Assembly (NCBI GenBank): GCA_049324495.1
Contig: JBMOOP010000128.1
Location: 10,797 to 74,796 of the forward strand
Direction: 5' to 3'
DNA length: 64,000 nt
DNA from: Pseudomonadota bacterium
GTDB lineage: Bacteria; Pseudomonadota; Gammaproteobacteria; Pseudomonadales; JADFDG01
The notes beneath the pieces were generated by a model. That model worked only from the letters and a program-made list of their open reading frames with translations. It made no database searches and had not been told where the DNA came from. Position numbers and translations under genes: made by a program. This document shows positions 12,554 to 43,415 of this stretch, piece after piece. The number at the start of each line of letters is the position of its first letter. Position 1 is the first letter of the stretch.

Positions 12554-12557
12554 GGCG

Positions 12558-16470: not shown

Positions 16471-16490
16471 GGGAATAGGAGTAAAGCGGG

Positions 16491-17240: not shown

Positions 17241-17358
17241 ATATCTTTTATATACAGGATGTTATGGCGTAAAGTTGACCTCTCGTCGCAGCTCGTGCCA
17301 CAGTGCCTTTGCATTCAAAAGCCCCGTTTTCAAATCACAACAAGGACATACCGAGTCC

Positions 17359-29972: not shown

Positions 29973-30566
29973 ATGAGCGATCTTCTCGTCGATATCAAGC
30001 CGTCCGCCCAGGAATACCTGCGTGGCCTGCTGGCCAAGCAGGAGCAGCCGGGCATTGCGGTACGGATCTTCGTCGAGCGCCCGGGCACCCCGCACGCCGA
30101 GTGCTGCATGGCCTACTGCCTGCCGGGCGAGGAGGTCGAGGGCGACAAGCGCTTCGAGTACGAGGGCTTTGGCGCCTGGATCGAGGGCAAGAGCGAGCCC
30201 TACCTGGTCGACGCGGTGATCGACTACAAGAAGGACGCGCTCGGCGGCCAGTTGACCTTCCGCGCCCCGCGCTCCAAGGTGCCGGACCTGCACGCCGACG
30301 CCACCCTCGAAGAGAAGATCAACTACTACCTCTATTCCGAGATCAATCCGCAACTCGCCTCGCACAGCGGCAACGTGTCGTTGGTGGAAGTCGATGATGC
30401 CGCTGTTGCCACGCTGGAATTCGGCGGCGGCTGCCAGGGCTGCTCGGCGGTCGATGTCACGCTGAAGAGCGGCGTCGAGAAGACGCTGATGGAGCGTATC
30501 CCGGAACTGAAGGGCGTGCGCGACAAGACGGACCACACGGTGCGGGACAACGCGTATTACAAGTAA
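29973..30566 (+). CDS. nfuA: Fe-S cluster biogenesis protein NfuA
   Basis: MSDLLVDIKPSAQEYLRGLLAKQ... is an A-type-like N-domain. The C-terminal Nfu domain carries CQGC (GGGCQGCSAVDVTLK). Confidence 0.9.
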   Translation: MSDLLVDIKPSAQEYLRGLLAKQEQPGIAVRIFVERPGTPHAECCMAYCLPGEEVEGDKRFEYEGFGAWIEGKSEPYLVDAVIDYKKDALGGQLTFRAPRSKVPDLHADATLEEKINYYLYSEINPQLASHSGNVSLVEVDDAAVATLEFGGGCQGCSAVDVTLKSGVEKTLMERIPELKGVRDKTDHTVRDNAYYK

Positions 30567-30597
30567 CTTCGCCCGGTCATGGCCCGAGAGGTAAATG

Positions 30598-30631
30598 AAA
30601 AGGCCGCGGAGAAATCCGCGGCCTTTTTTTT
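30598..30631. terminator. Bidirectional rho-independent terminator between convergent nfuA and a methyltransferase gene
   Basis: AAAA-GGCCGCGGA-GAAA-TCCGCGGCC-TTTTTTTT: a perfect 9-bp GC stem, a GAAA loop, a T8 tail, and an A-run on the other side. Confidence 0.85.
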
Positions 30632-30711
30632 GCGAGTGGTAGCCGGGCTCACCTTTCCTGGGTGGAGCGCAAGGCCGGGCAGGCCCCCGCTGCCGGTAGT
30701 ACGCTGCGGAA

Positions 30712-31413
30712 TTACTGGCGGGTGATGGCCAGCAGGCTCGACGGCATCAGCATGGCGGTGCAGTGCGTGTCGAGGATGCCCAGGTGTTGCAGGCGCTCGT
30801 CCTGTACTGGCGGCAGCATCAGGTGACCGGGGGTCAGCGGCGCCAGTACCTGCAGGTTCACGACGCCTTTTTCCATGCCCTCGAAATCGTCCAGCAGGAT
30901 CACGGTCTCGCTGTGCATCAGGTCGCGTACCAGCGGCAGGTCTTCAGCCTGCAGCCGGCCATCAAGGGTCAGCAGGTCCGCCTTCACGCCGGCCTGCACG
31001 AGGCGGGAATACATCTGCGTCGATGTCTGCCCGGGATGCGGGTGGATGCGTACCGGGCCGATGGTGGCCGGCAGCGTGCACGGGTTGTCCTTGTCGACGG
31101 TGTACAGGTCCCGTTCCGCGCTGTCGTTCCAGCCGGCGCCGAGCGCCAGCGACGTCGTCGACTTGCCGAGGAAGGTGCCCAGTTCAACGGTGACCTTTGG
31201 CTTGAACGTGTTCGCCACCATGAACAGGAACACGCCGGCGGACAGCGAGATGCTGCCGGTGTTGTAGCCCATGCGGCTGCGGTGCGTTTCGAGTTCGCCG
31301 AATCGTGCGGTCAGTTCCGGTACGATGGTCGGCAGCATGTGGCCGTGCAGATCGATCATCCGTGCCTGCACGGCACGCGACAGGTTGGCGACATTCAGCG
31401 TGAACTTGTTCAT
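30712..31413 (-). CDS. Putative class I SAM-dependent methyltransferase (O-methyltransferase/Methyltransf_24-like)
   Basis: ATG at 31413 (MNKFTLNVANL...). It has a motif I-like VELGTFLGKSTTSLA, then DKD... and LLDDFEG blocks. The assignment is tentative. Confidence 0.55.
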   Translation of the reverse strand: MNKFTLNVANLSRAVQARMIDLHGHMLPTIVPELTARFGELETHRSRMGYNTGSISLSAGVFLFMVANTFKPKVTVELGTFLGKSTTSLALGAGWNDSAERDLYTVDKDNPCTLPATIGPVRIHPHPGQTSTQMYSRLVQAGVKADLLTLDGRLQAEDLPLVRDLMHSETVILLDDFEGMEKGVVNLQVLAPLTPGHLMLPPVQDERLQHLGILDTHCTAMLMPSSLLAITRQ

Positions 31414-31426
31414 GTTTTTCTTTTTT

Positions 31427-32200
31427 TCAGGGTTTCTGGATGACGTAGCACTGCTGGATGCCGAAGCCGCCACCGGAGAACTGGCGCTCGAGTTCGTAGA
31501 AAGCCTTGTTCACCGGGTTCGAATAGCCGGGCCAGTCCGCCGGGTTGGTAACCAGTTCGCGCAAGAAGCGGGAGCCGAGGTAGTAGACCGAGGAGAAATC
31601 GTCGCGGGTAAACTGCAGGCCCTTGCCGGCGAGGAAGGCGTCCATGCGCTCGATCTTGATGTAGCGGTTGAAGTCGTGCTCGACCAGCGATGGCAGCGAC
31701 TTCAGGGTCCGGATGGCATTGAGCAGGACCAGTGGTTCCCAGAATGCTTCGCACAGGATCACCTTGCCGCCCGGCCGGCATACCCGCAGGCATTCATCAA
31801 TGCCCTGTTGCTGCTCGGCCCAGGTCGGGAGATTGATCAGTACGCGGGTGGTGTAGACCACGTCGAAGGCGTTGTCCGGCAACTGGATGCTGCGCACGTC
31901 GCCCACCATCAGGCGCACGTTGCCGGGATTGCCCAGCTCCTTCAGCTTTGCCTGTGCCTGCTCGATCATCGGTGCGCTGAAATCGATGCCGGTAATCGTT
32001 GCTGGCCGGCGCTCCAGGTGATGGAACGTCGAGTAGCCGTTCGCGCAGCCGACGTCAAGGATCGCATCCCCTTCGCGGATATGCTTTCCGACGGACTCGA
32101 TCTCCAGGGCGATGGCGTACTTGTCACCCCAGCTGGCCGAGTGATCGGTCTGGAACTTTCGGGCCTGTGAATTCCAGAAGTCGAGAATGTGGTCTGACAT
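31427..32200 (-). CDS. Class I SAM-dependent methyltransferase
   Basis: ATG at 32200 (MSDHILDFWNSQ...). It has the clear motif I ILDVGCANGYST and post-I/II blocks (GIDFS, FDVVYTTRVL, CRPGGKVIL). Confidence 0.8.
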   Translation of the reverse strand: MSDHILDFWNSQARKFQTDHSASWGDKYAIALEIESVGKHIREGDAILDVGCANGYSTFHHLERRPATITGIDFSAPMIEQAQAKLKELGNPGNVRLMVGDVRSIQLPDNAFDVVYTTRVLINLPTWAEQQQGIDECLRVCRPGGKVILCEAFWEPLVLLNAIRTLKSLPSLVEHDFNRYIKIERMDAFLAGKGLQFTRDDFSSVYYLGSRFLRELVTNPADWPGYSNPVNKAFYELERQFSGGGFGIQQCYVIQKP

Positions 32201-32378
32201 GCGGGTCTCCGTCGATGCGCGAGGGCCGAAAGGTGACGATAAAAGCATGATCGCGCCACTCATGTCACCAGCATCTGCGCCGTGGTACTGTTCATTTCCT
32301 CACGCACTCCAGGGGCTGTGAAGTCGTCGACGACTCGCAAGTCCGGCAGGGGTCGGCCACCCGCAGGGTTGATCGCTC

Positions 32379-33536
32379 ATGGGCCAGAAAGGCAGTCAGG
32401 GTTCCCCCGTTCCGTTCAACCGGGTTCGCCTGACCGGGCGGGAGTTGTCGTATATCGAGCAGCTCATCCGTGGCGGTGGCACGCTGTCCGGTGATGGCCC
32501 CTATACCGCCCGCTGCAGCCGGCTGCTGGAGGCGATGACCACTTCCCCGCGCGCCCTGCTGACCCACTCCTGTACCGCGGCGCTGGAAATGGCGGCCCTC
32601 CTCGCCGAGCTGCAGCCCGGTGACGAGGTCATCATGCCCTCGTATACCTTCGTTTCGACGGCGAATGCTTTCGTGATGCGGGGTGCAGTACCGGTTTTTA
32701 TCGATGTGCGGCCGGACACGTTCAACCTTGACGAATCCTTGATCGAGGCGGCCATCACCCCGAGGACGCGCGCGATCTGTGCCGTGCATTACGCCGGTGT
32801 TGCCTGCGAGATGGACGCCATCATGGCGATCGCGCGGCGTCACGGGTTGCTGGTGATCGAGGATGCCGCGCAGGCGCTGGTCGCGCGTTACCGCGATCGT
32901 CCGCTCGGGTCGATCGGGGACTTCGGTTGCTTCAGTTTCCACGAAACGAAGAACCTGGTGTCGGGCGAGGGTGGGGCGCTGACGATCAATACGCCGGAAT
33001 TCACCGAGCGCGCGGAAATCATCCGCGAAAAGGGTACCAACCGCAGCCGGTTCTTTCGCGGCCAGGTCGACAAGTACACCTGGGTCGATATCGGCTCGTC
33101 CTACCTGCCGTCGGAACTCATTGCCGCATTTCTACTCGCCCAGCTGGAGGACGCATCGGCGCTCACCGCGGCCAGGCTGCAGGTATGGAATGCATGGCAC
33201 GAGGCGCTGGCGCCGCTGGAAGCCGACGGCCTGCTGCGCCGCCCGGTCATTCCGCCGCATTGCACGCACAACGGTCACATTTACTACGCCCTCGCCAGCA
33301 GCCTGGAAGCACGTGGTCAGGTCCTGGAAGCGCTGAAGGCCGGCGGCATTCACGCGGTATTCCACTACGTACCATTGCACTCGGCGCCGGCGGGGATGCG
33401 TTTTGGTCGGGTGCACGGCGACATGACGAATACGCTGGTTGCGGGTGACCGGTTGTTCCGGTTGCCGGTATGGGCCGGCCTCGACGCGGAAGTTGTGGGG
33501 CAGGGCGCCGACATCCTGCGCCGCGCGCTGGCCTGA
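32379..33536 (+). CDS. wecE: dTDP-4-amino-4,6-dideoxy-hexose transaminase (WecE/RffA-like, DegT/DnrJ/EryC1 family)
   Basis: It is collinear with the E. coli WecE sequence as I remember it: LLTHSCTAALEMAALLAELQPGDEVIMPSYTFVSTANAFV, VHYAGVACEMD, FSFHETKN (PLP lysine), EIIREKGTNRSRFFRGQVDKYTWVDIGSSYLPSEL, FHYVPLHSAPAG. Confidence 0.85.
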   Translation: MGQKGSQGSPVPFNRVRLTGRELSYIEQLIRGGGTLSGDGPYTARCSRLLEAMTTSPRALLTHSCTAALEMAALLAELQPGDEVIMPSYTFVSTANAFVMRGAVPVFIDVRPDTFNLDESLIEAAITPRTRAICAVHYAGVACEMDAIMAIARRHGLLVIEDAAQALVARYRDRPLGSIGDFGCFSFHETKNLVSGEGGALTINTPEFTERAEIIREKGTNRSRFFRGQVDKYTWVDIGSSYLPSELIAAFLLAQLEDASALTAARLQVWNAWHEALAPLEADGLLRRPVIPPHCTHNGHIYYALASSLEARGQVLEALKAGGIHAVFHYVPLHSAPAGMRFGRVHGDMTNTLVAGDRLFRLPVWAGLDAEVVGQGADILRRALA

Positions 33537-33552
33537 TTCGCCAGCATTTCCT

Positions 33553-35340
33553 TCAGGGATAACCCTGCGCGCGCCGCTCGGCGATAACGGCCATGAAGTG
33601 ATCGGCAAAATCGCGCGCTGACTGCGATGGATTGCTCATCATCGCTTCCATGAATCGCTGTTCCGCATCGCCGACGGCTTTTGCGTAATCGCTGTCGTGC
33701 AGCAGGCGAGTGGCCCTGGCCACGTAGTCCTCGCTGTCGGTCGCGTGCTGGAACAGGATCGAGCCGTCCTTGTCGGCGAGAATTCCACGTGCCAGCGCGG
33801 TGTCTTCCGCCGTGCCCGTTTTGCCGTCGATCATCGACCAGAGAATGCGGTCGTAGGACGGGTCCTCGGACTGCGGATCGGCGGCCATGAACACCACCGG
33901 CGTGCCGGCCGCCATGGTGTCCAGCACGGTGAAGCCGCAGCCGAACGGGAAGGTGTCGAGGAAGACGTCCAGCACCTGCGCGTAGACCTTGATGTTGACC
34001 CAGCCAAGGAACCGCGTCTGGTCGATGACGCCGGCATCTCGGAAACGGCTGCTGATGTCGGCGGCCTCCTCGCGGCCGGTCCACAGGAATATTGCATCCC
34101 GATTTCGCTGGAGTATGGCGATGACGGCATCGAGGAACCGCGGGCTGCGGATGAGTTCGTGGCGCGCCAGCGTGCCGAGGATCTTCGCCGGCCGGTATTG
34201 CGCGACGATGGCGTCCGCCTCGGGACGCAGCGACGGATCGTAGCGCCCGGCAACCTGCAGCCGGCCGGCACGCCATACCCGGCCCTGCTTGACCTCGGTG
34301 CGTGAAAACGAGCCACTGGTGACATAGCCGTCGATCTCGTCGAAGCCGAGGCCGTGGTACTTCATGGACCACCAGATCTGCACTGGCGCGACGCGCATGG
34401 CGAACGCCAGCGGCATCATGATGGCCAGGCTGACCCAGACGAGACAGTTCACGCCATCGGTATGCAGCCGTTCGCGGAGGCGGGTCAGGCGCGTATAAAA
34501 ACTGTCCTTCGTTTCCGGGTACTCCTTGTCGAGGAGGATCACCGGGACGCCGATCTGCCGGAAGCGCTGCTGCATCGCGGCATCTTCGCCGCCGAAGCAG
34601 TAGATGACCGGGTCGAATGGCTTGTCGGCAAGTTGCTGGTAGCCGTCGAGCACATTGATGAGTGCCTCGATGTGCGCGAGCGTGCTGGCGTTGTGAATGA
34701 AGAACCCGATGCGCTGGCGTCCGCCCTCGACGGGTGCCGGCAGCGGTGGCAGACGGATGCGCAGGCGGCGCCCGGCGGCCAGCATGTCCGGGACCCACTC
34801 GTTGAGCTTGTCGCGGAAATGATCTTCCGTTTCGCGCTGTTTCACGAAGTGCTCGTAGCACTGCACTTCCAGTGCCAGCGCGTGGTCGAAGGCCCCTTGG
34901 GCGAGCGACCAGCGCAGCATGGGCAGCGCGCAGCCATAATGGATGCGCTCGAGCGTCTCGTAATCGTTGCTCTTGTGGAATCCCAGCGCATTGAGCAGCG
35001 GGAATATCAGGGAAAGCGTGTCCCGCACGGAGCGTCGGTCCACCAGTTTCTGCTGCAGGAGACTGATCAGCCCGGCATCAATCCTTCCGCAGACCCGTGC
35101 TGCCGTCGCGATGTTGGTCAGCAGGCTCGGCGACATGTCGCCGCGTTCCAGTGCGGCGAGCAACAACGGCAGGCCTGCAGCGGCGTTGCCGAGTTGCGTG
35201 TTGGCAACGCCAAGCAGGTGCAGTGCCTGCGGGTATACCGGGCTGGCCGGGGAAATCTCCCGGGCGATCGCGATGCCATCCGCGTTGCGCCCGGACTGGA
35301 TGGCGTGCATGGCCTGCTGGATGCGCGCGGCGTCGTCCAT
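33553..35340 (-). CDS. TPR-repeat protein with a C-terminal GT41 (O-GlcNAc transferase/SPINDLY-like) glycosyltransferase domain
   Basis: ATG at 35340 (MDDAARIQQAMHAIQSGR...). N-terminal TPR-like helices are followed by blocks matching the GT41 pattern: RIGFFIHNAS..., APVQIWWSMKYHGLG..DGYV, RSPRFLDAVIAILQRNRDAIFLWTG, RFLGWV....Y..VLDVFLDTFPFGCGFTVLDTMAAGTPVV. The Arg-rich extension of the ORF up to 35661 was rejected. Confidence 0.75.
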   Translation of the reverse strand: MDDAARIQQAMHAIQSGRNADGIAIAREISPASPVYPQALHLLGVANTQLGNAAAGLPLLLAALERGDMSPSLLTNIATAARVCGRIDAGLISLLQQKLVDRRSVRDTLSLIFPLLNALGFHKSNDYETLERIHYGCALPMLRWSLAQGAFDHALALEVQCYEHFVKQRETEDHFRDKLNEWVPDMLAAGRRLRIRLPPLPAPVEGGRQRIGFFIHNASTLAHIEALINVLDGYQQLADKPFDPVIYCFGGEDAAMQQRFRQIGVPVILLDKEYPETKDSFYTRLTRLRERLHTDGVNCLVWVSLAIMMPLAFAMRVAPVQIWWSMKYHGLGFDEIDGYVTSGSFSRTEVKQGRVWRAGRLQVAGRYDPSLRPEADAIVAQYRPAKILGTLARHELIRSPRFLDAVIAILQRNRDAIFLWTGREEAADISSRFRDAGVIDQTRFLGWVNIKVYAQVLDVFLDTFPFGCGFTVLDTMAAGTPVVFMAADPQSEDPSYDRILWSMIDGKTGTAEDTALARGILADKDGSILFQHATDSEDYVARATRLLHDSDYAKAVGDAEQRFMEAMMSNPSQSARDFADHFMAVIAERRAQGYP

Positions 35341-35381
35341 CGGGCTGGATTCCGTGACTGCGTTCGAACGAGGGTGCGGGT

Positions 35382-36074
35382 TCAGGACTGGAGCTTTCGC
35401 TCTTCCATGAACAGCAGGTGGTCGCGCTCGTCGGTCCAGACCTTCGCGTAGCCGCAATCCTGGTACGCGCTGTAGTACGGGCCGCCAAGCGTGTAGTGCA
35501 GGTTGGAAACCTGGTCGAGCGGGATTTCCGGGTCGTAGTCGACGAGGTGGTTCCAGCGGTGCGGGATCTCGCCGATCTCGTGGTCGCCGGCCAGCCACTT
35601 GAACTGGTGCAGTTCGAGGCCGCTGGCCTTGCTGACGTATTCCGGGGTGAGCGCGGTGCACTTCGCGCAGTTGAACAGCATCGCGCTCGACCAGTTTTTC
35701 TTTTCGTATTTTGTCTGCACTTCGCCCAGAAACTTGGTGCCTTCTTTTGGCTGATGCTGATGCTTGACAACCTGCACTGCATAGCGGTCATCACGCAGTG
35801 CCCAGAGTTTGGCGATGTCGTCGAGCATGACCATGTCGTTGTCGAAGAACAGCGCCCAGCCTTCGAAGTTGCACAGGAAGGGTGTCAGAAATCTTGAAAA
35901 CGAAAATTCGGTGGATTGCAGCGGGTTGATTTCTCGCCGCAAAAACTGTGACACGTACTCAATGTACAGTGGCGTGAAGGCAACCGGCTGCGAACTGCGG
36001 CGCATGATGCTGTGGGCGAACACGTCGTAGATCATGCCGGCGCGGCGGTCGTAGCCTATAAATACGCGGATCAT
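35382..36074 (-). CDS. Small GT-A fold glycosyltransferase (GT8-like, DxD motif)
   Basis: ATG at 36074 (MIRVFIGYDRR...), an ATGA overlap with the upstream gene. 230 aa with FDNDMVM (DxD) after a beta-strand-rich N-terminus, resembling small nucleotide-sugar transferases. Confidence 0.6.
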   Translation of the reverse strand: MIRVFIGYDRRAGMIYDVFAHSIMRRSSQPVAFTPLYIEYVSQFLRREINPLQSTEFSFSRFLTPFLCNFEGWALFFDNDMVMLDDIAKLWALRDDRYAVQVVKHQHQPKEGTKFLGEVQTKYEKKNWSSAMLFNCAKCTALTPEYVSKASGLELHQFKWLAGDHEIGEIPHRWNHLVDYDPEIPLDQVSNLHYTLGGPYYSAYQDCGYAKVWTDERDHLLFMEERKLQS

Positions 36075-37633
36075 GGGAATTTCCGTTGTTCTTGTTGTTC
36101 GTGGAACCTGCGATCGAACATCGAGAATACCCGAGGCTGCGGGTCCTTGGGCAGCCGTGCGGCGGCCTCGGCAATGACGGGCTCCCATTCGCCGCGCTGC
36201 CGGCAGCGCAGCAGGCGTGTACCCGGGTACCAGGGCACGGTTGCGCCCTCGTAACCCCAATACCAGGGCAGGCCCTTGTCGCGGTGCAGCAGCACCCAGA
36301 CCGGCCCGCCCAGGGCGCCGGCGAGATGCACGGTGCTGTTGCTGGTCGAGATCACCAGATCCAGCGCAGCGATTTGCGCAGCGAGCCCCTCGAGATCCCG
36401 GGTGGGATCAATGCCCGGGTCGCGGTAGATATCGATGCCGCTGCGTGCGCTGAAGGCATCGATCTCGGCGGCAGTGTCCCCGTACTGCAAGCTGAAAAAC
36501 TGCACGCCGGGCACCGATAACAGCGGCAGCAACCGATCCAGGGCCAGTGATTTGGCTTCACCGGTGGACGGATTGGCGCTGCGCCAGGAGATGCCAACCC
36601 GCAGCTTTCGGCCGAAGCGTTGCGCGTAATCCTGCGCCAGCGCCTCGCACCGTGCCGGATCGGGACGCAACCAGCCGGCCCGGATCGGGAAATCGCCGAT
36701 GCTGCGGCGGAACAGCCTTGGCAGATCGCCCATCAGGCACTGGCGCGCATAGCCGGCGCGGCGCGGGTCGTCTTCCGGGGTATCGCGCGGCACGAAGGCC
36801 AGCCCGGGCAGCGAGCGGGAAAACAGCGGCAGCAAACGCGCATCGCAATCGATCACGCTGTCGGCATGGCGCTGCTGCAGGTCGGCCAGCAAGCTGGAGT
36901 AAAGGAGTTCGTCGCCGATGCCCTGTTCTGCACGCACCAGCAGCTTGCCTTCGAACGGCTGGCCATCCCATAACCGGTCTTTCGGCAGGATCACCGGGCC
37001 GGGCACGAAGCGGGTGTTCCAGCGCGCACCGAAGCTGTCGAAGCCGGCAGCGAAATCGCCCGACTTCAGCCGGTGTTCCATCTGCATGTAACGCAACTCG
37101 GCATTGTCGGGAAATGCCGTGAGAGCCCTGGCGAGCGCAGCATCCGCACCTTCCCGATCGCCGCCATTGATCAGTAACGTAATCAACGATTCCCAGCTCT
37201 TGGGCAAATCGGGCCGGATCCGGATTGCCTTGCGCAGTGTGCGGATCGCGTCCTCGTCCTGCCCGAGCTGCGTGTGACAATACGCGAGATTGATCATGCT
37301 GAGCACATCGTTCGGCGCCCGCAGTTGATAGTGCTCCAGAATCGGCAGCGCGTCGGTGTAACGTGCCTGTTGCAGCAGGGCAAGCCCGATGTGATCGCCG
37401 AACAGTCGCTCAGGTGCGGCCTGCGCGGCGGCACGCCAGATATTTTCAGCGGCGCGCCAGTCACCCAGTTCCTCGGCGAGGCGCGCGTAGTCGATAAGCA
37501 ATTCAGGGGATGTCGCCAGCACCCGCAGTGCTTTGCGGTACAGCGGCTCGGCATCGCGCAGCATGCCCGCCTGGTGCAGTGATTTCGCGCGCTGCCACGC
37601 AGCGAGTGCAGCCTGCAGTGCGATCGGATTCAT
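36071..37633 (-). CDS. TPR + GT9-like (heptosyltransferase-fold) glycosyltransferase, paralogue A
   Basis: ATG at 37633 (MNPIALQAALAAWQRAK...), 520 aa. Shared blocks: WDGQPFEGKLLVRAEQGIGDE, VGISWRS, LQYGD, DLEGLAAQIAALDLVISTSNSTVHLAGALGGPVWVLL, WYWGYEGATVPWYPG. Confidence 0.7.
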   Translation of the reverse strand: MNPIALQAALAAWQRAKSLHQAGMLRDAEPLYRKALRVLATSPELLIDYARLAEELGDWRAAENIWRAAAQAAPERLFGDHIGLALLQQARYTDALPILEHYQLRAPNDVLSMINLAYCHTQLGQDEDAIRTLRKAIRIRPDLPKSWESLITLLINGGDREGADAALARALTAFPDNAELRYMQMEHRLKSGDFAAGFDSFGARWNTRFVPGPVILPKDRLWDGQPFEGKLLVRAEQGIGDELLYSSLLADLQQRHADSVIDCDARLLPLFSRSLPGLAFVPRDTPEDDPRRAGYARQCLMGDLPRLFRRSIGDFPIRAGWLRPDPARCEALAQDYAQRFGRKLRVGISWRSANPSTGEAKSLALDRLLPLLSVPGVQFFSLQYGDTAAEIDAFSARSGIDIYRDPGIDPTRDLEGLAAQIAALDLVISTSNSTVHLAGALGGPVWVLLHRDKGLPWYWGYEGATVPWYPGTRLLRCRQRGEWEPVIAEAAARLPKDPQPRVFSMFDRRFHEQQEQRKFP

Positions 37634-39147
37634 GGCCTGATCGCGAGTGTACGGGTGAGATCTGCGGCAACGTCGCCGGCCAATGCCCGCCAGTCGCGGC
37701 GCGGCGGCCCGCGAAACAGTCGCAGCGAACGGTACCAGGGCGCGCGCTCGCCGTCGTGGCCCCAGTACCAGAGCACGTAACGGCTGCCCGGGATCATCAC
37801 CCGGGTGGGACTGCCGAGGCCTCCAGCAAGATGCGCGGTGGTATTGCTGCAGGTGACAACGGCGTCGAGCGCGGCGATCAGCGCGCACAGGCCGTCGATA
37901 TCCTCGGTGCAGTCGAGGCCGGGTGCCACCTGCAGCACGAGGCCGGCGGCACCCAGTTGCGAGAGATCCGGCGCGATGTCGCCGTATTGCAGCGACACGC
38001 AGACGAAATCGTCATGCGAGAGCAGTGGCGCCAGGTCGGTCACCGGGATGCTCTTGCTGTCGCCGAGCAATGCACGGGCGCTGCGCCAGGACACCCCGAT
38101 CGCGCGGCGGCCGGGGAAATTCGTCGCCAGCCAGTCGCGCCAGTGCGCCACTTGCTGCGGGTCGGCGACCAGCCAGCTGATGCGCTCCGGCATGCGATCG
38201 ATGTCGCGGCGGAAATAGCGGCCGAGTTCCAGCCCGTCGATCTTGCGCGCGGCGGGATCGCGCGCGGCCCGCTCCAGCGCATCGGACTTGCGATCGGCAA
38301 ACTGCAGTGACGGGAACGAGCGACGATACAGCGGCAACAGTCGCGCATCGCAGTCGATCAGCGCGGGCTGGCCGATGCGCACCAGTTCCTCGTAAACGGA
38401 GGAGGCGAGCACCTGGTCGCCGAGGCCCTGCTCGGCGGTGACCAGCAGCGTGCCGTCGAAGCGCCGGCCATCCCAGGCCGGGCAGGGAAGCTGGGCGCCC
38501 TTGGGTTTTTCCAGCGACAGCGCCCAGCGGTGATGCATGTACTCGAAGCCGGTGGCGTAGTCGCCGGAGAGAAAACCGTGCTCGGAGCGGCCGGCGAGCA
38601 GCTGCGCATTCTGCGGCCAGTCGGCAAGCAGTTTCGGCATCCATTCGTCCAGTTCCCGGCGGCGACCGAGCCGCAGCAGTACCGACATCAGCAGCACGGC
38701 ATTCCGTTCAGATTTCGTGCCCTGGTAGATCTGGGTCATCAGGCGGACGGAACGGTCCTGCTGGCCGCACTTTTCCAGGCACCTCGACCAGGCCAGTGCG
38801 CAGTTCTCGTCGATATTGCCATCGGCACCGATCTGTTCGAGCAGCGGCAGTGCGTCGGCGTAGCGTTGCTGATTGAAGATGGCGAGTGCGAGCCGGGCAC
38901 GATGCCGGCCTGCATAAAGGGTGTCCGCGCGCCGCAGGATGCGCTCGGCGGCTACCCAATCGGCTGCTTCCATGGCCAGTTGCCCAAGCGCAGCCAAAAC
39001 CGGTTCGCTGTCGGGCGCAAGCGCGGCGGCCTGCTGGAATGCTTCCAGTGCGGTGACGAGATTGTGTGCGGCCAGTGCGGCCTGTCCCTGTGCCAGATGT
39101 TGTTGCGCGGCGGGAGACAGCGTTGTATTGGCGTTTTTTTCGCTCAC
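37630..39147 (-). CDS. TPR + GT9-like glycosyltransferase, paralogue B
   Basis: 505 aa. Shared blocks: WDGRRFDGTLLVTAEQGLGDQ, IGVSWRS, LQYGD, DIDGLCALIAALDAVVTCSNTTAHLAGGLGSP, WYWGHDGERAPWYRS. ATGA overlaps at both ends. Confidence 0.7.
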   Translation of the reverse strand: MSEKNANTTLSPAAQQHLAQGQAALAAHNLVTALEAFQQAAALAPDSEPVLAALGQLAMEAADWVAAERILRRADTLYAGRHRARLALAIFNQQRYADALPLLEQIGADGNIDENCALAWSRCLEKCGQQDRSVRLMTQIYQGTKSERNAVLLMSVLLRLGRRRELDEWMPKLLADWPQNAQLLAGRSEHGFLSGDYATGFEYMHHRWALSLEKPKGAQLPCPAWDGRRFDGTLLVTAEQGLGDQVLASSVYEELVRIGQPALIDCDARLLPLYRRSFPSLQFADRKSDALERAARDPAARKIDGLELGRYFRRDIDRMPERISWLVADPQQVAHWRDWLATNFPGRRAIGVSWRSARALLGDSKSIPVTDLAPLLSHDDFVCVSLQYGDIAPDLSQLGAAGLVLQVAPGLDCTEDIDGLCALIAALDAVVTCSNTTAHLAGGLGSPTRVMIPGSRYVLWYWGHDGERAPWYRSLRLFRGPPRRDWRALAGDVAADLTRTLAIRP

Positions 39148-40652
39148 GGCAGAAAAACTCCCGATGCATCACGGAGGCGTATTGCCAACGCCGTCCAGTC
39201 ATTGTCCGGCCCGTTGCGCCACAGGCGCAATGAGGGATACCAAGGCGTGCGCTCCACGTCATAACCCCAATACCAAAATATCGGCCGTGCATGTGGTAAC
39301 AGAACCTGGCAGGGCACTCCGCTCGCACCCGCGAGATGAACGGTGCTGTTGCTCACCGATACCAGGCCGTCGAGCGCACCCAGTTGCGCGAGTAAACCAT
39401 CGAGATCCTGGTACGCGTCGATGCTGTCATCGGTGACGGGTATCGGCAGGCCGGCACGGGCGAGCTCTGTGAGGTCATCGGACCTTTCACCATACTGCAC
39501 GTTGATGAATACCGTATTTTGTCGTGCCAGCAGTGGTGCCAGCGCGAGGACAGGGATCGATTTGCCTGGCCCATCGCTGAAGACCCGGTTACTGTGCCAG
39601 CTCAGGCCGACGATCTGGCGGCCGGGCCAGCGCAACCGGTAATCCTGGCGTATGCGGGCGACGCGTTCGGCGTCCGGTAACAACCAGGGTGCTTGAGGCG
39701 GCATGCGATCCTGGCACCGCAGGAAGCAGGCCAGATCCAACGACTTGATCCGCCGGAAGACAATGCCGCTGGCTGCGATACGGTCAAAATGGCCTTCCCA
39801 GCGCGGCAGAAAATCAATCTCTGGAAATGAGCGGCGAAACGCCGGAATCAGGCGCGGTTCGCATTCGACCAGGGTGCGCTGGCCCATGACGATGAGATCG
39901 CGGAACATGCACGAAGCGAGAATTTCTTCGCCGAGTCCCTGCTCCCCGGCGACCAGTAATGTGCCATCGAATTGCTTGCCGTCCCAATGGTGCGCTGGCA
40001 GTTTGCGGAAATCGGGGTGGTCATGGTCGTACCGGTGGCGTATCGCACGTTGAAAAGCGAAACCGCGTCCGAATGCGCCGCGTTTCAACAGATGTACGCC
40101 ACACAGCGACAACACGTCGGGGTTGTCGCTGTGGCGGACAATGGCGCTCTCGACGAGGGTATCGAGCTCTTCGCCGCGGCCGAGATTGAACAGGCTGTTG
40201 AGAACGATCTCCATGGACTTCGCATCCGGTGCGACTGACTCGAGACGGCGGCCGCAGGCCAGGGCGTCCTGCCAGTTTTTCAAGGCGCACGACACCAGAC
40301 CGAGAGCGAGAAGCACACCGCTATCGTCCGGTTGCCGCCTGAGATGGGCGTGAAAAAAAGGAACCGCTTCTGCGAAGCGCGCCTGCTTGAACAGTGCATA
40401 ACCCAGCCGCGCCTCGACGCCTGCGTCGGGACGCAACCCTATGATTTGGCGATAGAGCTTCTCGGTGGCCTGCCAATCATGCACCTGCTCGGCAAGGCGT
40501 GCGTATTCGGCAAGGATGGCGACATGATCCGGCAGCAATAAAAGTGCCTGCCGGTAGGATTCCGCTGCCAGTGCCAGTTCACCGCGTTCGTGCTGTTGCT
40601 GCGCTTGTTGGAAACGCCGCAATCCCCTCGCCACGCTCTGGGGGTTATTCAT
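39144..40652 (-). CDS. TPR + GT9-like glycosyltransferase, paralogue C
   Basis: 502 aa. Shared blocks: WDGKQFDGTLLVAGEQGLGEE, VGLSWHS, VQYGE, DLDGLLAQLGALDGLVSVSNSTVHLAGASGVP, WYWGYDVERTPWYPS. Confidence 0.7.
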   Translation of the reverse strand: MNNPQSVARGLRRFQQAQQQHERGELALAAESYRQALLLLPDHVAILAEYARLAEQVHDWQATEKLYRQIIGLRPDAGVEARLGYALFKQARFAEAVPFFHAHLRRQPDDSGVLLALGLVSCALKNWQDALACGRRLESVAPDAKSMEIVLNSLFNLGRGEELDTLVESAIVRHSDNPDVLSLCGVHLLKRGAFGRGFAFQRAIRHRYDHDHPDFRKLPAHHWDGKQFDGTLLVAGEQGLGEEILASCMFRDLIVMGQRTLVECEPRLIPAFRRSFPEIDFLPRWEGHFDRIAASGIVFRRIKSLDLACFLRCQDRMPPQAPWLLPDAERVARIRQDYRLRWPGRQIVGLSWHSNRVFSDGPGKSIPVLALAPLLARQNTVFINVQYGERSDDLTELARAGLPIPVTDDSIDAYQDLDGLLAQLGALDGLVSVSNSTVHLAGASGVPCQVLLPHARPIFWYWGYDVERTPWYPSLRLWRNGPDNDWTALAIRLRDASGVFLP

Positions 40653-42178
40653 GGGCGCAGGGTGACGAAATCGGCAAGGCGCGCGGCAGCGGTGTTCATC
40701 AGGACGCGCCAGTCGTCGTCGCAGGTGTTGCGCAGCAATTCCAGCGACGGATACCAGGGCGTACTGGTTCCCTGGTATCCCCAGTACCAGAGCACGGGCC
40801 GTATTTTTGGCAGTAGCACCAAACAGGTTATGCCCAGTGCGCCAGCGATATGAACCGTCGTGTTGCTGGTAGAAACGATGAGATCGAGCGCTGCAATCTG
40901 GGCGAACAGGCCATCGAGATCGTTGGTGGCATCGATCCGCGCATCGACGAAGATATCGCCCATGCCTGCCGCCCGTAGGCGGTTGATATCGTCTGCCACA
41001 TCGCCATACTGCACGTTGATGAACGCGGTGTTTGCAGTGCCCAGCAGAGGTTCGAAATTCTCAAGCCGGACATTTTTCATCGCGCCGCCTTCCATCACGC
41101 GCGTACTTTTCCAGCTCAGACCGATCAGCCGTCTGCCTGGCCAGCATTGCCGGTAATCGGCCCGTAGCGTGGCCGTGCGTTCGGCATCCGGCAGCAGCCA
41201 GGCGTGCCGATCCGGAAATTTTTCTTTGCCGTTGCGAAAAAAACCGACGAGATCGAGGCCGTTGATCCTGCGAAAGGAGCCGCCCTGGTTGAATGCCTCG
41301 ACCAGCTTCTTTTGGTGGCGTGGCACAAAGCGCAGACTCGGGAATGAGCGTGCGTAAACCGGAATCAGCCGCGTGTCGCATTCGACGATCGCAGCCTGAC
41401 CGAGGGCAACGAGGTCGGCAAATACCGACGAGACCATGATCTCGTCACCGAGCCCCTGCTCGGCGGTAACCAGCAGCGTACCGTCGAACGGTTTGCCATT
41501 CCATGGCTCACCGGGTGTGCCGGCATCCGGCGGTGTTTTGAGATTATGGCGCCAACGAAAATCGGCAAAATATGCAAAACCGTTTTCATAGTCGCCGGCT
41601 TTGAGCTTGTGCAGCGCATACATGGAACGAATTTCCGGACTTTCGGGGAAACGCCGCAGCGCATCGTTGATCAGCGCCTCAAGTTCGTCGGCGCGCGCCA
41701 GGTGAAAAAGCGCATTCAATACGGCATCGAGTACTTTTGCTTCGGGCTTTAATGCGTAGGCACGCCGGGCACAGGCGAGGCCGTCCTCCCAGCGTCCGCT
41801 GGCGCAATAACAGTTGCCGAGCGCATGGATGACATCGGCATCGGCAGGATTGCGCGCGATGTGTTTTTCCAGCCAGTCAATCGCTTCGCTGAAACGTTCC
41901 AGCCGAAACAGTGCGTGGCCGACATGGCCCTCGAAATTGGAATTCGGGCGCAGCGCGCCGATCCTGCGGAAAATTTTTTCCGCAGCCTGCCAGTCGGCAA
42001 CGTCTTCCGCAAGCCTGCCGTACTCGGCGAGCACGGCAGGATGATCCGGCATCAGCCCAAGAGCCTGCTGGTAGAGCGCCGCTGCTTTCGCGTGACTGCT
42101 GGCAGCGTGCTGTTGCCGGGCAGCTTCGAAAAGTTGCAGGCCTTTTATGATTGCCTGCGAATTATTGTTGTTCTGCAT
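40649..42178 (-). CDS. TPR + GT9-like glycosyltransferase, paralogue D
   Basis: 509 aa. Shared blocks: WNGKPFDGTLLVTAEQGLGDE, IGLSWKS, VQYGD, DLDGLFAQIAALDLIVSTSNTTVHIAGALGIT, WYWGYQGTSTPWYPS. It starts 27 nt after the aroG stop. Confidence 0.7.
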   Translation of the reverse strand: MQNNNNSQAIIKGLQLFEAARQQHAASSHAKAAALYQQALGLMPDHPAVLAEYGRLAEDVADWQAAEKIFRRIGALRPNSNFEGHVGHALFRLERFSEAIDWLEKHIARNPADADVIHALGNCYCASGRWEDGLACARRAYALKPEAKVLDAVLNALFHLARADELEALINDALRRFPESPEIRSMYALHKLKAGDYENGFAYFADFRWRHNLKTPPDAGTPGEPWNGKPFDGTLLVTAEQGLGDEIMVSSVFADLVALGQAAIVECDTRLIPVYARSFPSLRFVPRHQKKLVEAFNQGGSFRRINGLDLVGFFRNGKEKFPDRHAWLLPDAERTATLRADYRQCWPGRRLIGLSWKSTRVMEGGAMKNVRLENFEPLLGTANTAFINVQYGDVADDINRLRAAGMGDIFVDARIDATNDLDGLFAQIAALDLIVSTSNTTVHIAGALGITCLVLLPKIRPVLWYWGYQGTSTPWYPSLELLRNTCDDDWRVLMNTAAARLADFVTLRP

Positions 42179-42205
42179 TGTTCCGCGCTATTAAACGCGT
42201 CGTGT

Positions 42206-43285: not shown

Positions 43286-43415
43286 CGTAATTCAGGCTTT
43301 TGGCGGCAGGGAGGGGTCTGAGAGTGTACCGCATGGTCCTGCGCACCGAACAGCGACATCACTGGCCGAATGGTATCGGTCGCAGCGTGCATTCCTGGCG
43401 TGCCTTGCGGCGGAA

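What the first reader, a model, noticed from the sequence alone, without database searches (positions are those of the whole stretch)
30712..36074. Sugar-modification module with a TPR-GT41 (OGT/SPINDLY-like) enzyme, a GT8-like enzyme, a WecE transaminase and two methyltransferases, but no polymerase or exporter
Next to the four-gene array lie a small DxD (FDNDMVM) GT-A enzyme and a 595-aa TPR + GT41-like protein. The GT41 blocks RIGFF..., APVQIWW..Y.G, FLW.G and DVFLDTFPFGCGFTVLDTMAAGTPVV follow the OGT/SPY C-terminal pattern. There is also a convergent WecE-type dTDP-4-keto-6-deoxyhexose 4-aminotransferase, which is very close to E. coli WecE by eye. Two SAM methyltransferases are divergent from it. 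The whole 11.5 kb contains no Wzx/Wzy/Wzz, ABC/Wzm-Wzt, initiating phosphoglycosyl transferase, acetyltransferase or RmlABCD genes. GT41 enzymes characterised so far act on proteins (eukaryotic OGT; HMW1C-type adhesin N-glycosyltransferases; FlmG-type flagellin glycosyltransferases have a similar TPR+GT layout). Six glycosyltransferases, five of them carrying TPR modules, plus a 4-amino-6-deoxyhexose (Fuc4N/viosamine-type, possibly methylated) pathway fragment, fits a dedicated cytoplasmic protein-glycosylation system better than a polysaccharide locus. No flagellin or pilin gene is adjacent, so the substrate is unknown.
Basis: partly seen in the sequence, partly recalled or inferred. Interest (0 to 1): 0.72.

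Follow-up and report, generated by a model that had tools for sequence, protein, structure and literature searches.

The report
Probable flagellin glycosylation island, accessory cassette
This stretch encodes five sugar-handling enzymes that sit next to four tandem repeat-domain glycosyltransferases; relatives of these genes lie beside flagellin genes in other bacteria, so it most likely decorates the flagellar filament protein with a methylated amino-sugar rather than building a polysaccharide.

Summary
Window 30712-36074 encodes two SAM methyltransferases, a WecE orthologue (58% identical to E. coli RffA), a 595-aa protein with an OGT/SPY (GT41) fold and a 230-aa GT8-fold enzyme. It abuts four translationally coupled TPR + GT9-like paralogues at 36071-42178. 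No polymerase, flippase, exporter, initiating transferase, rmlAB or flagellin gene was found among the long ORFs scanned across the 64 kb.

New findings:
- **Variable cassette.** GT41-like + WecE + the two methyltransferases are absent from two related metagenome-assembled genomes (MAGs) that keep the GT8-like gene and the four-gene array in the same aroF-nfuA slot.
- **Recurring gene set.** It recurs across Proteobacteria, usually with dTDP-4-amino-sugar tailoring genes.
- **Flagellar linkage.** Homologues of the TPR-GT9, GT8-like and GT41-like genes lie directly beside flagellin or flgE/K/L genes in several metagenome loci and on flagellar plasmids of Roseomonas, Pseudoroseomonas and Rhodovastum, and in Azospirillum.
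- **Lost lysine.** The window's GT41-like protein has Leu where its family and OGT have the essential phosphate-binding Lys (hOGT K842).

Best reading: a flagellin glycosylation island unlinked to flagellar genes, like the P. syringae viosamine island. No biochemistry supports this yet. It is a new variant of a known kind.

The parts
30712..31413 (-). MT-A: 233-aa class I methyltransferase of the Methyltransf_24 (TylF-like) type. Probably methylates the sugar.
   Evidence: PF13578 is sub-threshold here (E 9e-5). The L033 homologue passes the cut-off. Homologues lie next to GT41-like genes in L008 (71% identity), L029, L033, L034 and L041. The 233-aa length matches L048 and L051.
31427..32200 (-). 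MT-B: 257-aa class I SAM methyltransferase. The ORF extends to 32263, but homologues start at the internal Met.
   Evidence: Methyltransf_25 E 1.4e-21 and Methyltransf_11 E 1.9e-20. Orthologues of 257-258 aa occupy the same position in L048 and L051.
32379..33536 (+). WecE/RffA-type dTDP-4-keto-6-deoxy-D-glucose 4-aminotransferase. PLP lysine K191 is at 32949-32951. It is convergent with the GT41-like gene, with a 16-nt gap.
   Evidence: NF008687 scores 564 bits against a cut-off of 375. PDB 4PIW matches at E 1.7e-134, and the next family reaches only 3e-50. It is 58% identical to E. coli RffA.
33553..35340 (-). GT41-like glycosyltransferase, 595 aa: helical TPR-like N-domain (about residues 1-200) plus an OGT-type GT-B catalytic domain.
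   Evidence: AlphaFold model pLDDT 95.3. The top 50 Foldseek hits are all GT41. hhalign against PF13844-positive proteins gives 99.7% probability. TtOGT 5DJS matches at E 2.7e-6. The family has 749 50%-identity clusters at E <= 1e-30.
34153..34155 (-). Codon for Leu396, at the position of the family's near-invariant Lys. That Lys corresponds to TtOGT K341 and, by my own recall of the human motif NQLYKIDP, to hOGT K842. The local motif is ARHELIRS, against AR[TE]EK[ML]xD in the family.
   Evidence: HMMER alignment to the 5DJS K341M mutant, family alignment, hhalign K-to-K match and codon check. P0001 (92% identical) and P0002 (60% identical) share the same substitution.
35382..36074 (-). GT8-like GT-A (retaining-type) glycosyltransferase, 230 aa. 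The DxD residues are D78 and D80 (35835-35843). Its start codon overlaps the T1 stop codon (ATGA).
   Evidence: Foldseek matches LARGE1, WbbM, LgtC and GlyE at E 1e-8 to 7e-8. It is 87-89% identical in L005 and L007. At least 8000 clusters are related, with invariant motifs. Junction checked.
36071..37633 (-). T1: TPR + GT9-like glycosyltransferase, first gene of the array next to the cassette.
   Evidence: TPR Pfam hits. GT9-like C-terminal domain. 68-70% identical to its positional orthologues in L005 and L007.
37630..39147 (-). T2: TPR + GT9-like paralogue. GTG start, 4-nt overlaps with the neighbouring genes on both sides.
   Evidence: 36-39% identical to the other paralogues.
39144..40652 (-). 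T3: TPR + GT9-like paralogue.
   Evidence: 35.5% identical to the Roseomonas marmotae TPR protein that lies directly upstream of flagellin.
40649..42178 (-). T4: TPR + GT9-like paralogue. Its ATG lies 27 nt after the aroF stop codon, on the same strand.

Best explanation
**What it is.** Window 30712-36074 is the strain-variable sugar-supply and capping cassette of a cytoplasmic protein O-glycosylation island. The conserved core of that island is the GT8-like enzyme plus the four TPR-GT9-like enzymes at 35382-42178. The most likely acceptor is flagellin, encoded elsewhere in the genome.

**Proposed mechanism (inferred, not shown).**
1. The TPR domains of T1-T4 bind unfolded or chaperone-free flagellin before export, and their GT-B domains attach sugars to Ser/Thr. 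The four old paralogues (36-48% identical to each other) each handle a different site or step.
2. The GT8-like retaining GT-A enzyme extends the glycan.
3. WecE converts dTDP-4-keto-6-deoxyglucose, made by unlinked RmlAB, into dTDP-4-amino-4,6-dideoxygalactose (Fuc4N type).
4. MT-A and MT-B methylate the sugar.
5. The GT41-like protein transfers the modified amino-sugar to the protein or to its glycan.

**The lost lysine.** In this clade the phosphate-binding Lys is replaced by Leu, with an Arg gained two residues later. The GT41-like protein is therefore either rewired for a dTDP donor or has become a non-catalytic binding subunit.

**What is shown.** Folds, family assignments, gene order, translational coupling, co-occurrence across genomes, and flagellar linkage of homologues.
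For: **Family assignments.**

**Operon structure.** T4, T3, T2, T1 and GT8 are joined by ATGA or GTGA overlaps. The GT41-like gene starts 41 nt downstream on the same strand.

**Modularity.**
- L005 and L007 keep one-to-one orthologues of T1-T4 (55-70% identical) and the GT8-like gene (87-89%) between aroF and nfuA, but lack GT41/WecE/MT-A/MT-B.
- L048 and L051 keep the whole cassette in the same order.

**Cassette co-occurrence.**
- WecE orthologues (50-60% identical) lie within 10 kb of the GT41-like gene in 11 of the 34 GTDB-genome loci (12 counting L001), together with RmlB-like, ATP-grasp, WbqC, hexapeptide acyltransferase and TylF-type methyltransferase genes.
- The same cassette, with an annotated rffA, is present in Pseudoroseomonas cervicalis.

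**Flagellar linkage.**
- L087: flgK-flgL-...-GT8-TPRGT-TPRGT-...-fliC-fliD-fliS.
- L095: fliC-GT8-MT-TPRGT.
- L023: TPRGT-GT8-TPRGT-MT-flagellin-flagellin, with a GT41-like gene divergent from it.
- L034 and L033: a GT41-like gene plus an MT-A homologue (plus RmlB-like and WecE in L034), divergent from flgE-flgK-flgL.
- Roseomonas marmotae and P. cervicalis flagellar plasmids: TPR-GT directly upstream of flagellin-flaF-flbT. A GT41-like gene is on the same plasmid.
- Rhodovastum atsumiense and Azospirillum ramasamyi: TPR-GT beside flagellin or flgE-flgK.

**Precedents.**
- FlmG, a TPR + GT-B enzyme, binds flagellin through its TPR domain (PMC7591256).
- The P. syringae viosamine island has vioA, vioM and vioT and is unlinked to the flagellar cluster (PMC3927599).
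Against: - There is no flagellar gene in the 64-kb window, and I could not check whether this uncultured lineage has flagella.
- Most homologous loci show no flagellar gene within 10 kb: about 31 of 34 GT41-like loci and 78 of 80 GT8-like loci. Many of these contigs are short, and my flagellar probes are not very sensitive.
- Two of six annotated TPR-GT contexts are not flagellar: A. thermophilum (polysaccharide glycosyltransferases) and Thalassospira (T6SS/autotransporter).
- A GT8-like homologue in S. meliloti pSymB lies in a Kdo/polysaccharide region.
- The window's GT41-like protein lacks the lysine that is essential in OGT.
- The order of enzymatic steps, the donor sugars of T1-T4 and GT8, and the methylation positions are guesses.
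Confidence: 0.55

Rival explanations
1. It is a cytoplasmic protein-glycosylation system, but the target is not flagellin. The TPR domains would recognise an adhesin, an autotransporter or another secreted or abundant protein, as in HMW1C/NGT or the TibC/Aah heptosyltransferases.
For: - Characterised GT41 enzymes act on many kinds of protein (my own knowledge of the family).
- GT9-like protein heptosyltransferases for autotransporters exist (cited in PMC7591256).
- The Thalassospira TPR-GT homologue lies beside an autotransporter and a T6SS cluster.
- The Azospirillum GT8-like locus L044 is near a 5152-aa adhesin-like gene.
- The window carries a 963-aa Calx-beta protein and two DUF6160 proteins 8-12 kb away.
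- Most loci lack flagellar neighbours.
Against: - No candidate acceptor gene recurs next to these genes across loci.
- Flagellar genes are the only structural protein genes found repeatedly and immediately adjacent.
Confidence: 0.2
2. The enzymes build a lipid-linked or lipid A-core-type glycan, or another glycoconjugate, at the cytoplasmic face. It is exported by unlinked general machinery such as MsbA. On this reading the GT9 x4 + GT8 combination mimics a waa core-oligosaccharide cluster, and WecE supplies Fuc4N as it does for ECA.
For: - GT9 and GT8 are the classic LPS-core families. The C-terminal domain's best PDB hit is WaaF, and the GT8-like model matches LgtC and WbbM.
- WecE is the ECA enzyme.
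- The S. meliloti GT8-like homologue sits among KpsF, KdsB and other polysaccharide genes.
- The A. thermophilum TPR-GT sits among polysaccharide glycosyltransferases.
Against: [quoted passage not shown]
- There is no Kdo transferase, core kinase, initiating phosphoglycosyl transferase, flippase, polymerase or ligase anywhere in the window.
- Homologues sit inside flagellar loci.
Confidence: 0.12
3. The window's GT41-like protein is catalytically inactive. It would be a pseudo-glycosyltransferase kept as a substrate-binding or scaffolding subunit, comparable in role to GlfM for Maf-2. Another enzyme would then transfer the WecE product. This is compatible with the main explanation.
For: - Leu396 replaces the near-invariant Lys, which aligns with TtOGT K341 (the K341M mutant in 5DJS).
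- The substitution is shared by relatives 92% and 60% identical, so it is a stable clade trait.
- An adaptor protein for a flagellin glycosyltransferase has a precedent (bioRxiv 10.1101/2023.12.03.569772).
Against: - All seven invariant family residues and the DVFLDTFPFGCGFT donor-site block are retained.
- Arg398 is gained two residues after the lost Lys and could take over phosphate binding (inference).
- The protein stays tightly linked to WecE and the two methyltransferases, as catalytic family members are.
Confidence: 0.3

Closest known systems
FlmG-class flagellin glycosyltransferases (Caulobacter crescentus, Brevundimonas; PMC7591256, bioRxiv 10.1101/2022.03.25.485807)
   Same: - Soluble, cytoplasmic, two-domain layout: N-terminal TPR domain plus C-terminal GT-B domain, about 500-600 aa.
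- In FlmG the TPR domain binds flagellin and the GT-B domain selects the donor.
- T1-T4 and the GT41-like protein share this layout, and their homologues sit next to flagellin-flaF-flbT in Acetobacteraceae.
   Different: - FlmG transfers pseudaminic or legionaminic acid. No nonulosonic-acid pathway is present here; a dTDP-4-amino-6-deoxyhexose pathway fragment is.
- Here there are five TPR-type glycosyltransferases plus a GT-A enzyme, not one enzyme.
- Sequence homology to FlmG could not be tested, because no FlmG sequence was available.
- FlmG is reported to be confined to Caulobacterales.
Pseudomonas syringae viosamine island and fgt1/fgt2 (and P. aeruginosa PAK orfA-orfN) (PMC3927599)
   Same: - A strain-variable island unlinked to the flagellar cluster.
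- It contains a dTDP-4-keto-6-deoxyglucose 4-aminotransferase (vioA), a methyltransferase (vioM) and a dedicated transferase (vioT) that caps the flagellin glycan with a methylated, N-acylated 4-amino-4,6-dideoxyhexose.
- The window's gene neighbourhood is Pseudomonas-like.
   Different: - The aminotransferase here belongs to the WecE (galacto, Fuc4N) group rather than being a named VioA.
- There are no vioB/vioS/vioR/acp acylation genes.
- The transferase is a 595-aa GT41-fold protein, not the 1173-aa VioT.
- There are two methyltransferases.
- Homology to VioT, Fgt1 and Fgt2 was not tested.
GT41: OGT, SPINDLY, Xanthomonas XCC0866, Thermobaculum TtOGT
   Same: - The same overall fold, TPR superhelix plus GT-B (Foldseek E down to 7e-19).
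- Shared motifs: APVQ..W, the xFN/ARxxK loop and DxxLDTxP...T...G.P.
   Different: - No PF13844 hit was obtained.
- Identity is only 12-18%.
- The N-terminal helical domain is short and barely recognisable as TPR.
- The His-Thr-Thr donor motif of OGT is Gly-Phe-Thr here.
- The catalytic Lys is Leu in the window protein.
- The likely donor is a dTDP-sugar rather than UDP-GlcNAc or GDP-fucose (inferred from gene linkage).
HMW1C/NGT cytoplasmic N-glycosyltransferase with its partner glycosyltransferase (A. pleuropneumoniae ngt-agt operon; PMC5303269)
   Same: A GT41-type cytoplasmic protein glycosyltransferase is encoded next to a second glycosyltransferase that extends the glycan. The substrate is encoded elsewhere.
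   Different: - NGT has no TPR domain.
- It N-glycosylates adhesins with hexose from UDP-sugars.
- That locus has no amino-sugar or methylation genes and no array of paralogues.
LPS core (waa) clusters and ECA (wec/rff) cluster
   Same: - The GT9 + GT8 enzyme families are present.
- A WecE orthologue is present.
   Different: - TPR fusions are present on every GT9-like protein.
- WaaA, core kinases, WecA, WzxE, WzyE and WecD/RffC are all absent.
- E. coli wecE sits between rffC and wzxE; here it sits between a GT41-like gene and two methyltransferases.

Membership tests
GT41 (OGT/SPY; Pfam PF13844) | OGT-type GT-B catalytic fold preceded by a TPR superhelix | tested here: met
   AlphaFold model pLDDT 95.3. 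The top 50 Foldseek PDB hits are all GT41, E about 1e-15 to 7e-19, aligned over 590-820 columns.
GT41 (OGT/SPY; Pfam PF13844) | Match to the Pfam Glyco_transf_41 profile at the curated threshold | tested here: not met
   No PF13844 hit at E <= 0.01; only PF13692 at E 3e-8. None of the 59 close family clusters carries a precomputed PF13844 hit.
GT41 (OGT/SPY; Pfam PF13844) | Detectable homology to bona fide PF13844 proteins | tested here: met
   hhalign of A1 against A5 gives 99.7% probability, E 5.7e-26, over 509 columns. phmmer against TtOGT 5DJS gives E 2.7e-6.
GT41 (OGT/SPY; Pfam PF13844) | Catalytic, phosphate-binding lysine (hOGT K842 / TtOGT K341) | tested here: not met
   The window protein has Leu396. 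More than 90% of the family has Lys at that column.
GT41 (OGT/SPY; Pfam PF13844) | Protein acceptor | not testable with these tools
   Only genomic context is available (flagellar linkage of homologues).
GT8 | GT-A fold of the GT8 type with a DxD motif | tested here: met
   Foldseek matches LARGE1, WbbM, LgtC, GlyE and XXYLT1. D78 and D80 are invariant.
GT8 | Pfam PF01501 at the gathering threshold | tested here: not met
   19.4 bits against a cut-off of 24.3, E 8.5e-4. Some family members carry a precomputed PF01501 hit.
WecE/RffA dTDP-4-amino-4,6-dideoxygalactose transaminase | Equivalog-level profile match, plus the PLP lysine | tested here: met
   NF008687 scores 564 bits against 375, and TIGR02379 551 against 435. 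58% identical to E. coli RffA, with FHETK191N conserved. The stereochemistry of the product was not tested.
Flagellin glycosylation island | Location within or beside flagellar genes in the same genome | tested here: not met
   No flagellar gene was found in the 64-kb window. The P. syringae viosamine island shows this is not obligatory (PMC3927599).
Flagellin glycosylation island | Orthologous or homologous genes embedded in flagellar loci of other genomes | tested here: met
   L087, L095, L023, L033, L034. R. marmotae, P. cervicalis, R. atsumiense, A. ramasamyi.
Flagellin glycosylation island | Glycan on flagellin that depends on these genes | not testable with these tools
   Needs mass spectrometry and genetics.
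FlmG class | N-terminal TPR plus C-terminal GT-B in one soluble protein | tested here: met
   T1-T4 have TPR Pfam hits plus a GT9-like domain. The GT41-like protein has this layout by structure.
FlmG class | Sequence homology to FlmG, and a linked Pse/Leg pathway | not tested
   No FlmG sequence was available. No NeuB/PseI-type gene was found in the window.
O-antigen / capsule / ECA polysaccharide locus | Initiating phosphoglycosyl transferase, flippase or ABC exporter, polymerase and chain-length regulator | tested here: not met
   None was found among the long ORFs scanned across the window.

The most novel reading that the evidence does not exclude
The TPR-GT9-like family (expanded to 4-7 tandem copies here and up to 11 matching places per Azospirillum chromid) and the GT41-like family are two uncharacterised, widespread classes of flagellin or other protein O-glycosyltransferases, distinct from Maf and FlmG. 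The GT41-like class would be the first OGT-fold enzymes to use dTDP-4-amino-4,6-dideoxyhexose donors. The window's clade would have rebuilt the phosphate-binding site (Lys to Leu, with a new Arg two residues downstream). The tandem paralogues would form an assembly line in which each enzyme reads a different site or a different flagellin.
Probability: 0.3. Interest if true: 0.75.

Novelty: new variant of a known kind. Interest (0 to 1): 0.55.

Why it matters
Flagellin glycosylation shapes motility, phage attack and immune recognition, yet only a few transferase classes (Maf, FlmG, Fgt/VioT, GmaR-type) have been studied.

If this reading is right, three uncharacterised families are part of that repertoire across alpha-, beta- and gammaproteobacteria:
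- TPR-GT9-like proteins;
- a very conserved 230-aa GT8-like enzyme with at least 8000 database clusters;
- a GT41-fold enzyme family with about 750 50%-identity clusters.

It would also extend the OGT fold to dTDP-sugar donors. Soluble, TPR-guided glycosyltransferases with swappable donor cassettes are useful parts for cytoplasmic glycoengineering.

The lysine-less GT41 clade is a natural experiment on what the OGT active site can tolerate.

Tried and rejected
1. **Pfam and NCBIfam naming.** Neither library could name the GT41-like, the GT8-like or the array's C-terminal domain. Structure prediction and profile methods were needed.
2. **PDB sequence search for the GT8-like protein.** It gave only a spurious ferritin hit.
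3. **Whole-length profile of the array against the PDB.** It was swamped by TPR matches. A profile of the C-terminal domain alone was required.
4. **Salmonella FliC N-terminus as a tblastn probe.** A small HMM built from the hits found two more in L023. Sensitivity is still limited, so 'no flagellar gene nearby' for other loci is weak evidence.
5. **Search for a recurrent non-enzymatic neighbour (candidate acceptor).** Clustering ORFs across about 50 loci turned up only more methyltransferases, glycosyltransferases and sugar-nucleotide enzymes.
6. **LPS-core reading.** I considered it because of the GT9 + GT8 combination. I ranked it low because of the TPR fusions, the missing core genes and the flagellar contexts.
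7. **Cytoplasmic methylated polysaccharide (mycobacterial MGLP/MMP type).** I considered this and found nothing to support it.
8. **Promoter and terminator scan of 30400-43500.** It gave no more sites than shuffled sequence.
9. **Ralstonia megaplasmid context.** The record carries no annotation, so it could not be read.

Full report
**1. What is in the sequence**

The window is about 60% G+C, so long spurious ORFs are common. Third-position G+C, homologue lengths and domain searches give this gene map.

| Gene | Coordinates (strand) | Size |
|---|---|---|
| MT-A | 30712-31413 (-) | 233 aa |
| MT-B | 31427-32200 (-) | 257 aa |
| WecE | 32379-33536 (+) | 385 aa |
| GT41-like | 33553-35340 (-) | 595 aa |
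| GT8-like | 35382-36074 (-) | 230 aa |
| T1 | 36071-37633 (-) | 520 aa |
| T2 | 37630-39147 (-) | 505 aa |
| T3 | 39144-40652 (-) | 502 aa |
| T4 | 40649-42178 (-) | 509 aa |
| aroF | 42206-43285 (-) | 359 aa |

T4/T3, T3/T2, T2/T1 and T1/GT8 overlap by four bases (ATGA or GTGA). The GT41-like gene starts 41 nt after the GT8 stop codon. T4 starts 27 nt after the aroF stop codon. So T4 through GT8 are translationally coupled, and the GT41-like gene probably belongs to the same transcript. WecE converges on the GT41-like gene with a 16-nt gap. The two methyltransferases diverge from WecE.

**2. Checking each assignment**

- **WecE.** It is an equivalog-level match: NF008687 scores 564 bits against a cut-off of 375. 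E. coli WecE structure 4PIW matches at E 1.7e-134, and the next family reaches only 3e-50. It is 58% identical to E. coli RffA, with the PLP lysine conserved.
- **MT-B.** It is a clear class I SAM methyltransferase.
- **MT-A.** It is only a sub-threshold Methyltransf_24 match here, but a homologue passes the cut-off.
- **GT41-like protein.** Pfam's GT41 model does not recognise it. Its best PDB sequence hit is the Thermobaculum OGT homologue 5DJS, E 2.7e-6. With a 58-sequence alignment AlphaFold gives pLDDT 95.3, and all 50 best Foldseek hits are GT41 enzymes: SPINDLY, Xanthomonas OGT, TtOGT and human OGT. A profile-profile comparison with PF13844-positive proteins gives 99.7% probability over 509 columns, including the N-terminal helical repeats.
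- **GT8-like protein.** It models at pLDDT 86. Its best matches are GT8 structures: LARGE1, WbbM, LgtC, GlyE. Its DxD residues are invariant.
- **Array proteins T1-T4.** They combine Pfam-positive TPRs with a C-terminal domain that is GT9-like. PF01075 hits 20 of 46 relatives, and the domain profile hits WaaF at E 5e-4.
- **The rest of the window.** The long ORFs scanned are housekeeping genes in a Pseudomonas-like order: cbb3 oxidase, fabI, mltD-gloB-rnhA-dnaQ, cysI, metH, nfuA, aroF, cysH, pabB. There is no polysaccharide assembly or export gene, no rmlAB and no flagellar gene.

**3.

The GT41-like family has a near-invariant lysine in the loop ILGTLAR-x-E-K-M-x-DP. In the HMMER alignment it falls on residue 341 of the TtOGT K341M mutant, and in the hhalign alignment on the lysine of FGCLNNFxKV. 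By my own recall of the human motif NQLYKIDP, this is hOGT K842, the essential phosphate-binding residue.

The window protein reads ARHELIRS, with Leu396 at that position. Relatives 92% and 60% identical share this motif. All other invariant residues are kept, and an Arg appears two residues downstream. So this is a stable clade trait, not decay. It means either a rewired active site or a non-catalytic role.

**4. Comparative genomics: core and cassette**

Two related MAGs (L005, L007) hold one-to-one orthologues of T4, T3, T2 and T1 (55-70% identical) and of the GT8-like gene (87-89%, as conserved as aroF and nfuA). These lie in the same aroF-nfuA-metH slot. In place of GT41/WecE/MT-A/MT-B they carry other small methyltransferases, and they have extra T paralogues.

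A third MAG (L048, GT41-like 92% identical) and a metagenome contig (L051, 60% identical) keep the cassette in exactly the window's order.

Within the window the T paralogues are only 36-48% identical to each other. The duplications are therefore old, and each copy has been retained. The finding's coordinates thus cover a variable cassette plus the last gene of a conserved core.

**5. The cassette recurs elsewhere**

A scan of one genome per GTDB species found 34 loci with a GT41-like gene. They come from alpha-, beta- and gammaproteobacteria, a Paludibacter and a Poribacteria MAG. None is more than 44% identical to the window protein.

- Including L001 from an earlier look-up, at least 12 loci have a WecE orthologue (50-60% identical) within 10 kb.
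- Five have an MT-A homologue.
- Four have GT8-like plus TPR-GT genes.
- Other recurrent neighbours are an RmlB-like dehydratase, ATP-grasp ligase, WbqC-like protein, hexapeptide acyltransferase, TylF-type methyltransferase, HMGL-like enzyme and amidohydrolase.

This is the toolkit for making an N-acylated or methylated dTDP-4-amino-4,6-dideoxyhexose. It suggests such a sugar is the family's donor.

An exhaustive HMMER search gives 749 50%-identity clusters at E <= 1e-30. The GT8-like family is far larger (at least 8000 clusters) and unusually conserved, at about 65% identity between alpha- and gammaproteobacteria. It has a TPR-GT neighbour in 28 of 49 metagenome loci of at least 6 kb.

**6. 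The acceptor**

No non-enzymatic gene recurs beside these genes. Flagellar genes do.

*Metagenome and MAG loci*
- **L087:** flgK, flgL, two GSCFA/methyltransferase genes, GT8-like, two TPR-GT genes, an unknown gene, flagellin, fliD, fliS, all on one strand. This is the slot used by the Pseudomonas glycosylation islands.
- **L095:** flagellin, then GT8-like 74 bp downstream, then a methyltransferase 60% identical to the one after the GT8-like gene in L005, then a TPR-GT.
- **L023 (Thiobacillaceae MAG):** TPR-GT, GT8-like, TPR-GT, methyltransferase and two flagellins on one strand, with a GT41-like gene divergent from them.
- **L034 (Dongiaceae) and L033 (Rhodospirillaceae):** a GT41-like gene and an MT-A homologue (plus RmlB-like and WecE in L034), divergent from flgE-flgK-flgL(-fliK).

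*Cultured, annotated strains*
- **Roseomonas marmotae p1318-2 and Pseudoroseomonas cervicalis pL11-D:** on these flagellar plasmids a T-family protein (33-36% identical to T1-T4) lies directly upstream of flagellin-flaF-flbT, and a GT41-like gene is on the same plasmid. In P. cervicalis that gene comes with a methyltransferase, annotated rffA (52% identical to the window's WecE), an amidohydrolase and an ATP-grasp enzyme.
- **Rhodovastum atsumiense and Azospirillum ramasamyi:** a T-family gene lies beside flagellin or flgE-flgK.

*Counter-examples*
- A. thermophilum: polysaccharide glycosyltransferases.
- Thalassospira: T6SS/autotransporter region.
- S. meliloti pSymB GT8-like homologue: Kdo/polysaccharide region.
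- Most short metagenome loci show nothing flagellar.

Flagellin genes are a fraction of a percent of a genome. I judge immediate, co-directional adjacency in at least five independent lineages to be well beyond chance, though I did not compute a formal statistic.

**7. Mechanism proposed**

*Shown:* families, folds, coupling, modularity, co-occurrence and flagellar linkage of homologues.

*Inferred:*
1. T1-T4 use their TPRs to bind flagellin in the cytoplasm and O-glycosylate it, as shown for FlmG (PMC7591256).
2. The GT8-like enzyme extends the glycan.
3. WecE aminates dTDP-4-keto-6-deoxyglucose made by unlinked RmlAB.
4. MT-A and MT-B methylate the sugar.
5. The GT41-like protein adds this sugar as a strain-specific cap, or binds the substrate for another enzyme if Leu396 makes it inactive.

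The P. syringae viosamine island is a close functional precedent. It has vioA, vioM and vioT, varies between strains, is unlinked to the flagellar cluster, and caps a rhamnose chain with methylated, acylated viosamine (PMC3927599).

**8. Comparison with known systems, and verdict**

This works like a flagellin glycosylation island of the FlmG or Fgt/Vio kind. Its enzymes, however, belong to families with no characterised member that I could find:
- a GT41-fold family below the Pfam threshold;
- TPR-GT9 fusions;
- a compact GT8-like enzyme.

Membership in GT41 is supported by fold and profile homology, but fails on the curated profile and on the catalytic lysine. It is not a polysaccharide locus by any defining gene.

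I rate it a new variant of a known kind. My confidence is 0.55 that the target is flagellin and roughly 0.75 that the target is a protein. Interest is moderate (0.55): the families and the lysine-less OGT fold are worth bench work, but nothing here overturns current understanding.

Noticed in passing
window 29065-29792 (+): A small two-gene pair lies between metH and nfuA. The first is a Phd/YefM-type antitoxin (96 aa, PF02604 E 7e-11). A 146-aa ORF overlaps it by 4 nt and has only a faint PIN match (E 0.19). This is probably a type II toxin-antitoxin module inserted next to the glycosylation island.
   Followed up: partly
window 50723-59489 (+): A cluster of possible secreted or surface proteins: a 963-aa Calx-beta protein, two DUF6160 proteins (53725-54579 and 54729-55622), a C39 peptidase (55823-56632), an unknown 465-aa ORF and a FadL-type outer-membrane channel. 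I did not examine it further. It could hold an alternative glycosylation target.
   Followed up: no
window 42179-42208: The aroF (DAHP synthase) stop codon lies only 27 nt upstream of the T4 start codon, on the same strand. The same aroF-array adjacency is kept in L005, L007 and L053. The glycosyltransferase array may be co-transcribed with an aromatic amino-acid biosynthesis gene.
   Followed up: partly
L005 1468-5983 and L007 76-5909: In the related MAGs, extra TPR-GT9 paralogues are interleaved with methionine-salvage genes (IF-2B/MtnA-like, Aldolase_II, ARD, HAD). The main array lies near metH. The locus is rich in methyltransferases, so the proximity to methionine/SAM recycling genes may not be accidental.
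   Followed up: no
Azospirillum chromids, e.g. NZ_CP007794.1 and NZ_CP059450.1: The TPR-GT9-like family gives up to 8-11 matching places per replicon in Azospirillum. It also occurs in non-flagellar contexts and in a cyanobacterium (Pseudanabaena, 24% identity). The superfamily is therefore probably broader than flagellin modification.
   Followed up: partly
L087 5958-9954 and L044 16297-17190: GSCFA-family proteins (PF08885) accompany the GT8-like gene in a flagellar island and on an Azospirillum plasmid. In L087 one of them is fused to the methyltransferase that follows the GT8-like gene in other loci. Their role is unknown.
   Followed up: no
window 33527-33545 (+): A GC-rich hairpin (GCTGGCCTGATTCGCCAGC) spans the WecE stop codon in the 16-nt convergent gap with the GT41-like gene. 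It could be a shared terminator. Across the region, though, terminator-like sites are no more frequent than in shuffled sequence.
   Followed up: partly
L003/L009 (Candidatus Albibeggiatoa) 11977-18013 and L044 10848-13904: Some GT41-like and GT8-like loci carry a GT61 enzyme, split TPP-dependent (E1/transketolase-like) enzymes, a GHMP kinase and B12-binding radical SAM enzymes. This suggests quite different, elaborate sugar modifications attached to the same transferase families.
   Followed up: no
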